Shown one piece after another: positions 37,664 to 42,017 of a stretch of DNA of 64,000 nucleotides. The notes below the pieces were generated by a model, which was not told where the DNA came from, did no database searches, and saw only the letters and a list, made by a program, of their open reading frames with translations. Position 1 is the first letter of the stretch; every line of letters starts with the position of its first letter. The stretch is from Escherichia phage vB-Eco-KMB38: the sequence record OR525701.1; one strand, given 5' to 3'. A program made the position numbers and the translations under genes.

Positions 37664-37960
37664 TTACATAAGAAGCAAACGTTCTACCGGAGTACCATCA
37701 ACCGAAATTACCTTATCAAGGCGGAAAGAACGCCACTGACCTAACTCGGTATCGAATGCTCGAACTGATTCACGAGGTTCATAACGAACTTCTGTTGCCG
37801 GATTGTTATTTTCATATTTGACTTCAAGTTCATCGCGGGAGGCAAACATCGTACGAACATCACCGTTAGCCTTTTCAAATACAACACAATGAACGCCTAC
37901 AGACAGAATAGTTTTAATACGTTCACGAAGAACCATAGTTTCTTGTTCAGTTAAAATCAT
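37664..37960 (-). CDS. hypothetical protein (31.1-like)
   Basis: 98 aa from ATG overlapping the cd stop (TAATATG); the track ORF starts at an upstream GTG. Confidence 0.6.
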   Translation of the reverse strand: MILTEQETMVLRERIKTILSVGVHCVVFEKANGDVRTMFASRDELEVKYENNNPATEVRYEPRESVRAFDTELGQWRSFRLDKVISVDGTPVERLLLM

Positions 37961-37961
37961 A

Positions 37962-38543
37962 TTATTCACCACAAAAGTTTCGGATTTGTTCCCAATTCAG
38001 AGAACGAAGATTATTACGAGAGTACTGAATTACTTCAATACCAGCTTGTTTTAGAATGTCGGCCCAATTTTCAGGAGATCTGTCATATAATTCTGCGTAT
38101 ACAACCTTTTTAATACCTGACTGCGTGATAGCTTTAGTGCAATCAGGGCATGGAGAAAGCGTAGTATATAACGTAGCACCTTCAATAGAATTACCTTTAC
38201 GAGCTGCAAACAAAATTGCATTCAGTTCCGCATGGATTTCGTTATTAGCAGACCATGCACTATGAGCGGCCCGATGTTCTTTAGCCAAAACAAAATTATC
38301 TGCCCGTCCAAATGCTGTAGTGCCTTCTTTATGTCCAGCAACGATGACTGGGATTGGTTTATTCTTCAACCAACCATTTTCAGATGCATGTTCACAACAG
38401 TTAACACCGCCTGAAGGAGAGCCATTATATCCAGTAGAGATAATGCGTCCATCTTTTTCAATGACGGCACCAACTTTCCATGAACAACATTTTGATTCTT
38501 GAGAAATCAAATAAGCAATTTGAAGATATGTGCTAGCTTTCAT
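37962..38543 (-). CDS. cd: dCMP deaminase
   Basis: 193 aa; zinc-binding motifs CCEHA and PCPDC; same length as T4 Cd. Confidence 0.92.
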   Translation of the reverse strand: MKASTYLQIAYLISQESKCCSWKVGAVIEKDGRIISTGYNGSPSGGVNCCEHASENGWLKNKPIPVIVAGHKEGTTAFGRADNFVLAKEHRAAHSAWSANNEIHAELNAILFAARKGNSIEGATLYTTLSPCPDCTKAITQSGIKKVVYAELYDRSPENWADILKQAGIEVIQYSRNNLRSLNWEQIRNFCGE

Positions 38544-39535
38544 TATTGAACCTTATTAATATAAGTTAACAGCTCTTTAGTTTGTTCCCAACTGATGCAC
38601 GCATCGGTAATGGAAACGCCATATGACATATTATCAGAAATTTTTTGATTTCCTTCATGTAGGAATGATTCTATCATAATTCCTTTGACCAAATCATTAG
38701 CTGCTAAATTTTTACCAATACCAATTTGATTACTATAATGCCCATCAGCGTTTGCATGGCTACAGTCAACCATTACATAATGATTCAGACCTACTGCCCT
38801 TGCTTTGTTAGAAGCTTCTTGAATATCAGAAGAATGATAGTTCGGGCCGTTGGTCCCGCCACGCAATACGATATGCGTATTCTGATTACCTTCAGCTTCA
38901 ACAATGCCTACAGTACCATCGACGTCCATACCCATATACCGATGAGGCCAGGAGGCACTATACATCGCGTCTGTAGCTACTTTAATAGAACCATTGGTTG
39001 CGTTCTTGAAGCCTACGCACATCGGTAGACCTGAAGCAATTTCACGATGTGTCTGACTTTCAGTCGTACGGGCGCCAATAGCAACCCATGAGAAAATACC
39101 AGAAAGATACTTAATCGTGAATGGGTCCAATACTTCAGTTGCTAATGGAAGTCCCATACGTAGAAGTTTACGACACAATGTTCGTGCAACTATAAGACCG
39201 TGGTTCATATCAAAACTTCCGTCAAGATATGGATCATTTACAAGACCTTTCCAACCTACGGTAGTTCGAGGCTTTTCAAAATAAACGCGCATCACTAACA
39301 GAACATTAGGAAGACGAGTTTGAAGTTCAGCCAGACGTTTGCCGTATTCAACAGCAGCAATAGGGTCATGAATTGAACAAGGACCTACAACAATAAGTTT
39401 GCGTGGGTCTTCACCGTTCATAATCGAATTAACTTGTTCGCGATGAGAAGCCACTTGTGATGCGTAAGCTTCCGACAAAGGAATAATCTCAGCCAGTTCT
39501 TTTGGAGAAATAAGTTTTCCGACGATAGGTAACAT
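38543..39535 (-). CDS. 3-deoxy-D-arabino-heptulosonate-7-phosphate (DAHP) synthase, AroG/AroF class I-like
   Basis: 330 aa; aligns along its length with E. coli AroG as recalled: GPCSIHD, KPRTTVGWKGL, GARTTESQ, DCSHAN, ESFLHEGNQ, SITDACISWE; TAAGGA RBS; stop overlaps the cd start. Confidence 0.85.
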   Translation of the reverse strand: MLPIVGKLISPKELAEIIPLSEAYASQVASHREQVNSIMNGEDPRKLIVVGPCSIHDPIAAVEYGKRLAELQTRLPNVLLVMRVYFEKPRTTVGWKGLVNDPYLDGSFDMNHGLIVARTLCRKLLRMGLPLATEVLDPFTIKYLSGIFSWVAIGARTTESQTHREIASGLPMCVGFKNATNGSIKVATDAMYSASWPHRYMGMDVDGTVGIVEAEGNQNTHIVLRGGTNGPNYHSSDIQEASNKARAVGLNHYVMVDCSHANADGHYSNQIGIGKNLAANDLVKGIMIESFLHEGNQKISDNMSYGVSITDACISWEQTKELLTYINKVQ

Positions 39536-39655
39536 AACAATCCTTAGGAGATATAAACAGATTCTGATTCAACAATACCTTTAACCGGATTAGACAGGCT
39601 AAGTTGGTAGTGCTCAGATTTATGACCATTCTCGATAGTAATGAGATAGCTCTCA

Positions 39656-39892
39656 TTATAGTGTTCCATATACTCGAGTTGCTTCAACAAGACCATCACT
39701 GCCTAATTTAAGATTAGTAATTTGGTCACCATCTTTAGGATTAACGATTATGAGAAAAGAACGTGGAGATTCTTGAATAACTCGTAATGTTGCATCCTGG
39801 AAACGTTCAGACACTTTATTGATGAGTGCTTGAGCAAATTCTTTTACTTTAATCTGAAATTCGTGTACTGTAATTGGGGTTTCACTTAGCAT
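39656..39892 (-). CDS. hypothetical protein
   Basis: 78 aa; GAGGAAA RBS; early promoter upstream. Confidence 0.6.
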   Translation of the reverse strand: MLSETPITVHEFQIKVKEFAQALINKVSERFQDATLRVIQESPRSFLIIVNPKDGDQITNLKLGSDGLVEATRVYGTL

Positions 39893-39921: not shown

Positions 39922-39951
39922 ATAGTATCACAACTCCACCATGTTGTAAAC
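39922..39951 (-). promoter_or_regulatory. early promoter driving the cd-proximal operon including the DAHP synthase gene
   Basis: Minus strand GTTTACaacatggtggagttgtgaTACTAT followed by caacacaatgaggaaa and ATG at 39892. Confidence 0.65.
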
Positions 39952-41717: not shown

Positions 41718-41718
<1 letters not shown>

Positions 41719-42017
41719 TATTTTATTCCTAAGAAAGTTTCAAGAATACGAATGTTATGCTCGCGGCGGTCTTTATTAATTTCAGCAACGTTTTTATTAA
41801 TTGACGTACTTCTAACGTTTGAAGAAATAAATTTAATCATATGACTTTTGAGTTGTTGCAAATCCAACCCCTTTTCTTTAGCAGCTTTACGAAGAGCTTT
41901 ACCTGCTTCATCTAGGGCCTTTGCTGCATCTTTATCATAGTTGCCAAGTGACATTCCACGGCAGATATCAATATACTCATCAGACCGTTTGATGTAATTC
42001 TCTAGTAATGTTTTCAT
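41718..42017 (-). CDS. hypothetical protein
   Basis: 99 aa; GAGGAAA RBS; own early promoter at 42046-42075. Confidence 0.6.

What the first reader, a model, noticed from the sequence alone, without database searches (positions are those of the whole stretch)
38543..39535. Intact AroG-type DAHP synthase gene embedded in the early cd operon
The 330-aa product aligns end to end with E. coli AroG (first enzyme of the shikimate pathway) as I recall it. The KPRTTVGWKGL and GARTTESQ signatures and the four metal ligands (Cys in GPCSIHD, His in DCSHAN, Glu in ESFLHEGNQ, Asp in SITDACISWE) are all present. T4 has only small cd.x ORFs at this position, so this looks like an acquired host-type metabolic gene. 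It is translationally coupled to dCMP deaminase and driven by an early promoter, so it would be expressed immediately after infection. Both termini are shorter than AroG, and the AroG N-terminus contributes to Phe feedback inhibition, so the phage enzyme may be deregulated. A KDO8P-synthase-like activity feeding a sugar-nucleotide or DNA-modification pathway cannot be excluded from sequence alone.
Basis: partly seen in the sequence, partly recalled or inferred. Interest (0 to 1): 0.65.

Follow-up and report, generated by a model that had tools for sequence, protein, structure and literature searches.

The report
Phage DAHP synthase next to cd
A T4-like coliphage (genus Mosigvirus) carries an intact copy of the enzyme that opens the aromatic amino-acid (shikimate) pathway; public phage genomes already annotate this gene widely, but its feedback-control pocket is altered in a way that suggests the phage enzyme escapes the host's normal shut-off.

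Summary
Window 38543..39535 (-) is an intact 330-aa class I-alpha DAHP synthase. It passes the curated aroFGH equivalog model, keeps all 12 catalytic, metal and substrate residues checked, and its predicted fold matches solved DAHP synthases (TM 0.96). No KDO8P synthase model matches it. It lies in an early-type operon: promoter-like site, cd.2, orf41, DAHPS, cd, with a TAATG stop/start overlap onto cd.

It is not new. The window is 100% identical to phages PTK and AlbertHofmann. 212 phage records carry a homologue, most of the listed ones already named as this enzyme, and PHROG 5045 holds the family.

It is not an AroG orthologue. It fails the AroG-specific model and sits in a phage-only clade (bootstrap 100/100) about 50% identical to any cellular enzyme.

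Two things are added here.
1. The feedback-inhibitor pocket is remodelled in all 25 clade members: AroG residues 1-8 are missing, with P150I, Q151K/R, S180P and F209Y. These are positions where E. coli mutations give feedback resistance, so the enzyme is probably deregulated (inferred, not tested).
2. Relative to RB69 the gene lies on a 1,094-bp cassette that carries a remnant of a foreign cd.2 and is flanked by 19-bp imperfect repeats. This points to phage-to-phage transfer.

No experimental work on it was found.

The parts
38543..39535 (-). DAHP synthase gene (3-deoxy-7-phosphoheptulonate synthase, class I-alpha), 330 aa, stop codon included
   Evidence: ORF. Pfam PF00793 at 1e-74. TIGR00034 and PRK12755 above their cut-offs. 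PHROG 5045 at 9.8e-182. PDB matches to AroF and AroG. AF2 model pLDDT 93.8. Foldseek TM 0.96 to solved DAHPS.
39541..39546 (-). Shine-Dalgarno-like TAAGGA 5 nt upstream of the DAHPS ATG; it overlaps the orf41 stop codon
   Evidence: Read directly from the sequence.
38541..38545 (-). TAATG: the DAHPS stop codon TAA overlaps the cd start codon ATG by one base
   Evidence: The same arrangement joins cd.2 and cd in RB69.
37962..38543 (-). cd, dCMP deaminase (193 aa), immediately downstream
   Evidence: Pfam dCMP_cyt_deam_1 at 3.2e-26. Annotated as dCMP deaminase in the identical record.
39544..39669 (-). orf41: remnant of the C-terminal half of a foreign Cd.2-family (DUF7320) gene that came in with the DAHPS
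   Evidence: Pfam DUF7320 positions 44-76 of 78, 28.8 bits against a cut-off of 27. 51% identical to the Cd.2-like protein of Enterobacter phage Entb_45 and 55% to that of a Klebsiella phage, but only 30% to the window's own Cd.2.
38547..39640 (.). 1,094-bp segment (orf41 remnant plus DAHPS) that is absent from RB69 at the otherwise collinear cd.2/cd junction
   Evidence: blastn of the window against RB69: the flanks match at 96.8% and 92.9% and abut in RB69. About 11 records show the empty site and about 140 the occupied site.
39641..39659 (.). Upstream copy of the 19-bp imperfect direct repeat (sense strand: ATAATGAGAGCTATCTCAT)
   Evidence: It matches 16 of 19 bases of the downstream copy.
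38528..38546 (.). Downstream copy of the 19-bp repeat (sense strand: ATAATGAAAGCTAGCACAT), which is the DAHPS stop plus the first 16 nt of cd
39656..39892 (-). cd.2 (78 aa, DUF7320), the first gene after the promoter-like site
   Evidence: Pfam DUF7320 at 1.4e-35. Homologous to Cd.2 of RB69 and RB32.
39922..39951 (-). T4 early-type promoter-like site GTTTACA-N17-TACTAT, lying exactly between the cd.3 stop and the cd.2 start
   Evidence: It belongs to a motif family with 12 matches in the window against 3.1 expected; 0 of 100 shuffles reach 12, and 11 of the 12 are on the minus strand. It was also found by the generic scan. No minus-strand terminator-like site lies between it and cd.

Best explanation
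The gene encodes a catalytically competent, metal-dependent class I-alpha DAHP synthase, which condenses PEP and erythrose-4-phosphate into DAHP, the first step of the shikimate pathway. It is a phage auxiliary metabolic gene. It is probably transcribed with cd.2, orf41 and cd from an early-type promoter at 39951..39922, and its stop codon overlaps the cd start (TAATG). The pocket where Phe or Tyr binds in the E. coli enzymes is remodelled, so the phage enzyme is most likely insensitive to aromatic amino-acid feedback. After the phage shuts off host gene expression, it would keep carbon flowing into chorismate and so into Phe, Tyr and Trp, and possibly into pABA/folate and quinones. Downstream steps would be carried out by surviving host enzymes. 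Shown here: gene identity, intact active site, fold, synteny, purifying selection, the derived allosteric residues and the insertion anatomy. Inferred: enzyme activity, loss of feedback inhibition, time of expression, and benefit to the phage. My confidence is about 0.95 that it is an active DAHPS and about 0.6 that it is feedback-insensitive.
For: Identity: Pfam, NCBIfam and PHROG profiles all match and every NCBIfam match is a DAHPS model. Active site: 12 catalytic, metal and substrate residues (AroG C61, R92, K97, P98, R99, T100, R165, K186, R234, H268, E302, D326) are invariant in 25 phage-clade sequences; 11 are also invariant in 98 cellular sequences, and T100 is T in 95 and S in 3. Fold: AF2 pLDDT 93.8 and TM 0.96 to solved DAHPS. 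Selection: dN/dS is 0.17-0.24 between genera, and the gene sits in the same pseT-cd interval in Klebsiella, Proteus, Serratia and Enterobacter phages. Deregulation: the equivalents of AroG residues 1-8, including D6 and D7, are absent in 25/25. Q151 is Q in 98/98 cellular sequences but K in 24 and R in 1 of the phage clade. P150 is I in 24/25, S180 is P in 25/25 and F209 is Y in 25/25. PMC9529685 reports that AroG P150L, S180F and F209A/S are feedback-resistant and that Q151 and S180 bind the inhibitor's main chain. An independently related DAHPS in Aeromonas phage HJ05 also has A150/H151/P180/V209 with an intact catalytic set. Expression: an early-type promoter family member lies at 39922-39951, the ORFs are tightly packed, the stop/start overlap is TAATG, and no terminator-like site intervenes.
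Against: No enzyme, expression or phenotype data exist for any phage copy in the literature I could search. The altered pocket residues are strictly conserved within the phage clade rather than drifting, which fits a re-tuned or structurally constrained site as well as a dead one. S211 is Gly, as in Tyr-sensitive AroF, so some Tyr binding cannot be excluded. About 11 related Mosigvirus records, including RB69, lack the gene, so it is dispensable. The single substitutions studied in homologues often cost activity or stability, for example Q159A and S188F in C. glutamicum AroF.
Confidence: 0.65

Rival explanations
1. It is an ordinary, still feedback-regulated DAHP synthase. It simply adds enzyme dosage, replacing host isozymes that can no longer be re-synthesised after host shut-off. 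The pocket changes would then be neutral lineage history, or would keep Tyr sensitivity.
For: The position equivalent to AroG S211 is Gly, as in Tyr-sensitive AroF and in 96 of 98 close cellular homologues. D146, L179 and V221 are retained. The regulatory beta6a/6b hairpin and most of the N-terminal extension are present in the model.
Against: Q151 is invariant in 98/98 cellular sequences and contacts the inhibitor, yet it is Lys or Arg in 25/25 phage sequences. P150, S180 and F209 are also replaced, at positions where single mutations give resistance, and the N-terminal cap with D6 and D7 is missing.
Confidence: 0.2
2. The allosteric pocket has been re-tuned rather than lost. The conserved I-K/P/Y pocket would bind a different effector, for example a nucleotide or a phage-specific metabolite, and so link entry into the shikimate pathway to the phage's own metabolism.
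For: The derived residues V144, F148, I150, K151, I175, P180 and Y209 are fixed in 24-25 of 25 sequences, although overall identity to the window falls to 56%. The gene is in one operon with cd, which is itself an allosteric enzyme (RB69 annotation note).
Against: No ligand evidence exists. The segment lies close to the active site (8.5 A according to PMC9529685), so its conservation could be catalytic or structural. Loss of the N-terminal cap opens the pocket.
Confidence: 0.1
3. It has a different activity: KDO8P synthase-like, or another PEP-aldol condensation that feeds a sugar or DNA-modification pathway.
For: KDO8P synthase shares Pfam PF00793 with DAHPS (general knowledge). The gene lies beside nucleotide-metabolism genes.
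Against: No KdsA model matches even at E<=10, and all seven NCBIfam matches are DAHPS models. The protein passes the aroFGH equivalog cut-off by 254 bits. The KPRT E4P-phosphate motif and all four metal ligands are intact. The top 50 structural matches are all DAHPS.
Confidence: 0.03
4. It is a passenger gene with no function for the phage, merely tolerated at a hot spot for insertions.
For: It is present in some Mosigvirus and absent in others. It lies in the hyperplastic cd.x region.
Against: It is full length with an intact active site in 25 clade representatives spanning at least five genera. dN/dS is about 0.2. Its GC content has been ameliorated to phage values. About 140 of about 150 close relatives keep it.
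Confidence: 0.02

Closest known systems
E. coli AroF / AroG / AroH (class I-alpha DAHP synthases, TIGR00034 aroFGH)
   Same: Same family, fold and active site. Identity is 50%, 47% and 43-44% respectively. All metal ligands and PEP/E4P-binding residues are conserved. TM is 0.95-0.96 to AroG structures.
   Different: It is not an orthologue of any of the three and forms a separate phage clade with 100/100 bootstrap support. It fails the AroG- and AroH-specific models. It lacks AroG residues 1-8. The inhibitor-pocket residues P150, Q151, S180 and F209 are replaced by I, K, P and Y. It has deletions of about 5 and 3 residues in two C-terminal loops and a shorter C-terminus.
PHROG 5045 and the 'phospho-2-dehydro-3-deoxyheptonate aldolase' genes annotated in Straboviridae phages (Mosigvirus, Kanagawavirus, Winklervirus, Bragavirus, Klebsiella T4-like phages)
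   Same: This is the same gene family. The window protein matches the PHROG end to end at E=9.8e-182 and is 100% identical to the copies in phages PTK and AlbertHofmann. The genomic position between pseT and cd is the same in the other genera. The Kanagawavirus KLB31 copy has been discussed as a hypothetical AMG (PMC11845039).
   Different: Nothing differs at the level of the gene. The remodelled feedback pocket and the cassette structure described here were not mentioned in anything I could find.
Engineered feedback-resistant DAHPS alleles (AroG P150L, S180F, F209A/S, L175D; AroF and AroFcg variants)
   Same: The phage clade carries substitutions at the same positions, P150I, S180P and F209Y, plus Q151K.
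   Different: The phage carries several changes together with an N-terminal truncation, all fixed by natural selection. Their effect has not been measured.
Cyanophage-type auxiliary metabolic genes (general knowledge: talC, zwf/gnd, CP12, psbA)
   Same: The concept is the same: a virus encodes a flux-controlling host-type enzyme to sustain metabolism during infection.
   Different: The pathway is different (entry to aromatic and chorismate synthesis) and the host is an enterobacterium. No functional data exist.

Membership tests
Class I-alpha DAHP synthase (aroFGH, TIGR00034 / PF00793) | Scores above the curated profile cut-offs | tested here: met
   TIGR00034 427.2 bits against a cut-off of 173.2. 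PRK12755 454.9 against 343. PF00793 251.3 against 25.5.
Class I-alpha DAHP synthase (aroFGH, TIGR00034 / PF00793) | Four metal ligands (AroG C61, H268, E302, D326) | tested here: met
   C53, H260, E289 and D311, invariant in 25/25 phage-clade sequences.
Class I-alpha DAHP synthase (aroFGH, TIGR00034 / PF00793) | KPRT(S/T) E4P-phosphate motif and PEP-binding residues R92, K97, R165, K186, R234 | tested here: met
   All are conserved in 25/25 sequences. KPRTTVGWKGL is at residues 88-98.
Class I-alpha DAHP synthase (aroFGH, TIGR00034 / PF00793) | (beta/alpha)8 barrel with the I-alpha N-terminal extension and the beta6a/6b hairpin | tested here: met
   AF2 pLDDT 93.8 and pTM 0.92. Foldseek TM 0.94-0.96 and rmsd about 1.5 A to N. 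meningitidis and E. coli DAHPS. The N-terminal extension is present but 8 residues shorter.
Class I-alpha DAHP synthase (aroFGH, TIGR00034 / PF00793) | Catalyses PEP + E4P -> DAHP | not testable with these tools
   This needs an enzyme assay or complementation of an aroF aroG aroH mutant.
AroG (Phe-sensitive isozyme) specifically | Scores above the AroG equivalog cut-off (NF006723) | tested here: not met
   364.1 bits against a cut-off of 568. In the NJ tree it falls outside the AroG/AroH branch.
AroG (Phe-sensitive isozyme) specifically | Inhibitor-pocket residues (D6, D7, P150, Q151, S180, F209, S211) | tested here: not met
   D6 and D7 are absent. The other positions read I150, K151, P180, Y209 and G211.
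KDO8P synthase (KdsA) | Match to a KdsA profile | tested here: not met
   No KdsA model is listed even at E<=10. The motif is KPRT. From memory, the KdsA counterpart is KANRS.
Phage auxiliary metabolic gene | Host-type metabolic enzyme carried in a bona fide phage genome, conserved and under purifying selection | tested here: met
   The window is 100% identical to complete Mosigvirus genomes. 212 records carry a homologue. dN/dS is 0.17-0.24. Synteny holds across genera.
Phage auxiliary metabolic gene | Demonstrated effect on host metabolism or phage fitness | not testable with these tools
   No experimental report was found.

The most novel reading that the evidence does not exclude
The strictly conserved, remodelled regulatory pocket (N-terminal cap removed; I150, K151, P180, Y209) may be a re-purposed allosteric site rather than a dead one. 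It would respond to a non-aromatic effector, so that a T4-like phage couples entry into the chorismate pathway (aromatic amino acids, and pABA/folate needed for dTMP and hydroxymethyl-dCMP synthesis) to its own nucleotide metabolism. That would fit the gene sitting in one early operon with dCMP deaminase.
Probability: 0.08. Interest if true: 0.7.

Novelty: already known. Interest (0 to 1): 0.3.

Why it matters
The gene itself is catalogued, so finding it is routine. Two open points have modest value. First, this is a large natural clade of DAHP synthases that appears to have lost or re-tuned feedback control, with several changes at exactly the positions that metabolic engineers mutate one at a time. 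If confirmed, it would be a stable, naturally optimised deregulated enzyme and a clear example of a coliphage rewiring amino-acid or chorismate flux. Second, the natural presence/absence polymorphism within Mosigvirus (RB69, moha and JK42 lack the gene; about 140 isolates have it) gives a ready near-isogenic comparison for testing what an aromatic-pathway AMG does for a virulent enterobacterial phage. The cassette with a truncated foreign cd.2 and 19-bp flanking repeats also records how T4-like phages exchange accessory genes in the cd.x region.

Tried and rejected
1. KDO8P synthase or another activity: rejected. No KdsA model matches at E<=10 and every match is a DAHPS model.
2. AroG orthology or recent capture from E. 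coli: rejected. The AroG-specific model fails, identity to AroF/G/H is only 43-50%, the phage clade is separate, and GC content is phage-like.
3. A link to defence or anti-defence: no PADLOC hit for the DAHPS, orf41 or Cd.2.
4. Generic sigma-70 and terminator scan: not above chance overall, 18 found against 15.1 expected. The T4 early-type pattern search replaced it.
Only PMC11845039 mentions a DAHPS in a T4-like phage, and only as a hypothesis. Two Mosigvirus genome papers do not mention it.
6. Other 'phage' DAHPS hits as independent replicates. The 'Acinetobacter phage MD-2021a' contig is bacterial, since it carries cob genes. The 6.9-kb faecal contig is unverified and from a different subfamily. 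Only Aeromonas phage HJ05 was usable.
7. The first Biopython tree run timed out. It was redone with numpy distances on 60 sequences. The tree includes only the cellular sequences most similar to the query, so the donor lineage remains unresolved.
8. dN/dS within Mosigvirus was not computed. The between-genus values have saturated dS, so the ratios are approximate.
Full report
**1. Observation**

The ORF is exactly as described: window 38543..39535, minus strand, ATG start, 330 aa. It matches Pfam DAHP_synth_1 at E=1e-74. It also matches NCBIfam TIGR00034 'aroFGH' (equivalog, 427 bits against a cut-off of 173) and PRK12755 (455 against 343). Against solved structures, phmmer aligns residues 8-327 with E. 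coli AroF (E=1.9e-104) and residues 6-325 with AroG (3e-91). The four metal ligands C53, H260, E289 and D311 align with AroG C61, H268, E302 and D326. An AlphaFold model built from 34 sequences is confident (pLDDT 93.8, pTM 0.92).

**2. Where the window comes from and whether the gene is known**

The 2-kb region is 100% identical to Escherichia phages PTK and AlbertHofmann (Bas47; Straboviridae, Tevenvirinae, Mosigvirus). It is 98% identical to HX01, JS09, ST0 and many other phages.
- tblastn finds a full-length homologue in 212 phage records, 139 of them at 95% identity or more.
- Most of the listed annotated records name it phospho-2-dehydro-3-deoxyheptonate aldolase, DAHP synthase, aroF or AroG.
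- PHROG 5045 ('moron, auxiliary metabolic gene and host takeover') matches end to end at E=9.8e-182.
- One paper discusses the Kanagawavirus KLB31 copy as a hypothetical aromatic amino-acid AMG (PMC11845039).
- I found no experimental work in ten literature searches or in two Mosigvirus genome papers.

The gene is therefore already known by annotation but functionally uncharacterised.

**3. What kind of DAHP synthase it is**

It is class I-alpha but is not an orthologue of AroG. It fails the AroG-specific model (364 < 568 bits) and the AroH-specific model (387 < 463). Identity is 50% to AroF, 47% to AroG and 43-44% to AroH.

A search of 5.8 billion proteins returns 24 phage-type representatives, 319-343 aa long and 56-98% identical. 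The next hits are cellular proteins of at most about 54% identity from unrelated lineages: Pontiella, Planctomycetota, Pseudomonadales and Pasteurella. In an NJ tree of 60 sequences the phage clade is monophyletic in 100 of 100 bootstraps and lies outside the E. coli AroF, AroG and AroH branches.

The gene's GC content (0.38-0.44) is like that of its flanks. This is an old, phage-adapted lineage, not a recent capture from the host.

No KdsA (KDO8P synthase) model matches even at E<=10, and all seven NCBIfam matches are DAHPS models.

**4. Active site versus regulatory site**

I aligned 123 sequences: 25 from the phage clade and 98 cellular, including E. coli AroF, AroG and AroH.

The 12 catalytic, metal and substrate residues (AroG C61, R92, K97, P98, R99, T100, R165, K186, R234, H268, E302, D326) are invariant in all 25 phage-clade sequences. 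Eleven are also invariant in the 98 cellular sequences; T100 is T in 95 and S in 3.

The feedback-inhibitor pocket separates the two groups cleanly:

| AroG position | 98 cellular sequences | 25 phage-clade sequences |
|---|---|---|
| Residues 1-8 (including D6, D7) | present in 98 | absent in 25 |
| Q151 | Q in 98 | K in 24, R in 1 |
| P150 | P in 89 | I in 24 |
| S180 | S in 96 | P in 25 |
| F209 | F in 98 | Y in 25 |

In window numbering these are I141, K142, P171 and Y200. The position of AroG S211 is Gly, as in AroF.

According to PMC9529685, AroG P150L, S180F, F209A/S, L175D, L179A and V221A are feedback-resistant. The same paper states that Q151/Q152 and S180/S181 contact the main chain of the bound Phe or Tyr.

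The inference is that the phage enzyme no longer binds Phe or Tyr in the classical way. It remains an inference. The new residues are fixed across the clade rather than drifting, which also fits a re-tuned or structurally constrained site.

A distantly related DAHPS (37% identity) in the unrelated 79-kb Aeromonas phage HJ05 also has A150, H151, P180 and V209 with an intact catalytic set. This hints at a recurring theme, but it is a single sequence.

**5. Genomic anatomy and expression signals**

On the minus strand the gene order is pseT (299 aa), cd.4, an RB69ORF227-like ORF, cd.3, cd.2, orf41, DAHPS, cd, 31.1.
- The DAHPS stop overlaps the cd start (TAATG, 38545..38541).
- A TAAGGA Shine-Dalgarno sequence lies 5 nt upstream of the DAHPS ATG and overlaps the orf41 stop.
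- A search for the T4 early-type pattern GTTTAC-N17-19-TANNNT finds 12 sites against 3.1 expected (0 of 100 shuffles reach 12). Eleven are on the minus strand, and several share GTTTACA...TGTGATACTAT.
- One of these sites, at 39951..39922, fills the gap between the cd.3 stop and the cd.2 start exactly.
- No minus-strand terminator-like site lies between it and cd.

Early co-transcription of cd.2, orf41, DAHPS and cd is therefore plausible from sequence. It has not been shown by expression data.

**6. Distribution and origin of the Mosigvirus copy**

The gene occupies the same pseT-cd interval in four other phages:
- a Klebsiella T4-like phage;
- Proteus Bragavirus phiP4-3;
- Serratia Winklervirus CHI14;
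- Enterobacter Kanagawavirus Entb_45.

It is absent from Tequatrovirus RB32, which has cd.1, cd.2 and cd.3 there. It is also absent from RB69, the type Mosigvirus, where cd.2 abuts cd with the same TAATG.

blastn of the window against RB69 shows collinear flanks (96.8% and 92.9% identity) interrupted by a 1,094-bp segment, 38547..39640. That segment is bounded by 19-bp imperfect direct repeats that match at 16 of 19 positions. The sense-strand copies are ATAATGAGAGCTATCTCAT upstream and ATAATGAAAGCTAGCACAT downstream, and the downstream copy includes the first 16 nt of cd.

The segment begins with orf41 (39544..39669). This ORF matches only the C-terminal half of the Cd.2 family: Pfam DUF7320 positions 44-76 of 78, at 28.8 bits against a cut-off of 27. 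It is 51-55% identical to the Cd.2-like proteins that sit directly upstream of the DAHPS in Entb_45 and the Klebsiella phage, but only 30% identical to the window's own Cd.2.

The simplest reading is as follows. A fragment ['cd.2-DAHPS-start of cd] from a Kanagawavirus-like T4-type phage (DAHPS 77% identical) was inserted into an RB69-like cd.2/cd junction. The right end joined through the conserved first bases of cd and the left end through microhomology.

Whether today's roughly 11 empty-site records (RB69, mar005P1, JK36, JK42, moha, ECO111 5-P) never had the gene or lost it by recombination between the repeats cannot be decided. About 140 records have the occupied site.

Between genera dN/dS is 0.17-0.24. 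dS is saturated, so these ratios are approximate. The value indicates purifying selection.

**7. Mechanism, rivals and verdict**

Most likely this is an early-expressed, catalytically normal and feedback-insensitive DAHP synthase. It would keep PEP and E4P flowing into the shikimate pathway after host shut-off, using the host's remaining pathway enzymes. My confidence is about 0.95 for the enzyme identity and about 0.6 for deregulation.

The rivals are:
- a still-regulated enzyme that only adds dosage (0.2);
- a pocket re-tuned to another effector (0.1);
- a different activity (0.03);
- a functionless passenger (0.02).

A link to folate supply through chorismate and pABA, suggested by the neighbouring nucleotide-metabolism genes, is pure speculation.

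Novelty is 'already known' and interest is modest (0.3). The residual value lies in the remodelled allosteric pocket and in the natural presence/absence polymorphism that would make it testable.

Noticed in passing
window 38528-38546 and 39641-39659; 39544-39669 (-): The DAHPS lies on a 1,094-bp segment absent from RB69. The segment is flanked by 19-bp imperfect direct repeats and begins with a 41-aa ORF that is a C-terminal fragment of a foreign Cd.2/DUF7320 gene. This is a footprint of phage-to-phage cassette transfer by short-homology recombination at the start of cd.
   Followed up: yes
window, 12 sites: 13215, 16061, 28476, 29286, 33225(+), 35822, 36266, 39922, 42046, 43452, 44635, 51739: The motif GTTTAC-N17-19-TANNNT occurs 12 times against 3.1 expected, 11 of them on the minus strand. 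Many share GTTTACA...TGTGATACTAT, which looks like the phage's early-promoter family.
   Followed up: partly
L008 3899-5062 (Aeromonas phage HJ05, OQ594355): An unrelated 79-kb phage carries a 387-aa DAHPS (37% identity) annotated as hypothetical. It has an intact catalytic set but altered inhibitor-pocket residues (A150, H151, P180, V209, A211, S221), plus His-rich N-terminal and acidic C-terminal extensions. This may be convergent deregulation.
   Followed up: partly
L013 (CAKLQH020000056.1, 'Acinetobacter phage MD-2021a'): This contig in the phage collection carries aroF next to cobS, cobT, cobU and phosphatase genes. It looks like bacterial chromosome mislabelled as phage.
   Followed up: partly
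window 37664-37972 (-), 102 aa, downstream of cd (gene 31.1 position): The protein matches Pfam WYL_2 (Sm-like SH3 barrel, 8.5e-10). Public records annotate it inconsistently as 'tail fibers protein', 'olfactory receptor-like protein', 'WYL domain protein' or hypothetical.
   Followed up: no
window 41718-42017 (-), 99 aa, upstream of pseT: AlbertHofmann annotates this ORF as a 'putative homing endonuclease'. Here it gives only a sub-threshold Pfam hit (TnsD, 17.9 bits against a cut-off of 32.4). RB69 has a different, shorter ORF (ORF231c, 237 bp) in this position.
   Followed up: no
L006 3957-4582 and L007 3998-4339: In the Proteus and Serratia phages, one or two small ORFs separate the DAHPS from cd. 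One of them looks Cd.1-like by eye: its C-terminus ends in ...TTYLVI or ...TTYLVY, compared with ...SAYLVIMK in RB32 Cd.1. In Mosigvirus, Kanagawavirus and the Klebsiella phage the DAHPS directly abuts cd.
   Followed up: no
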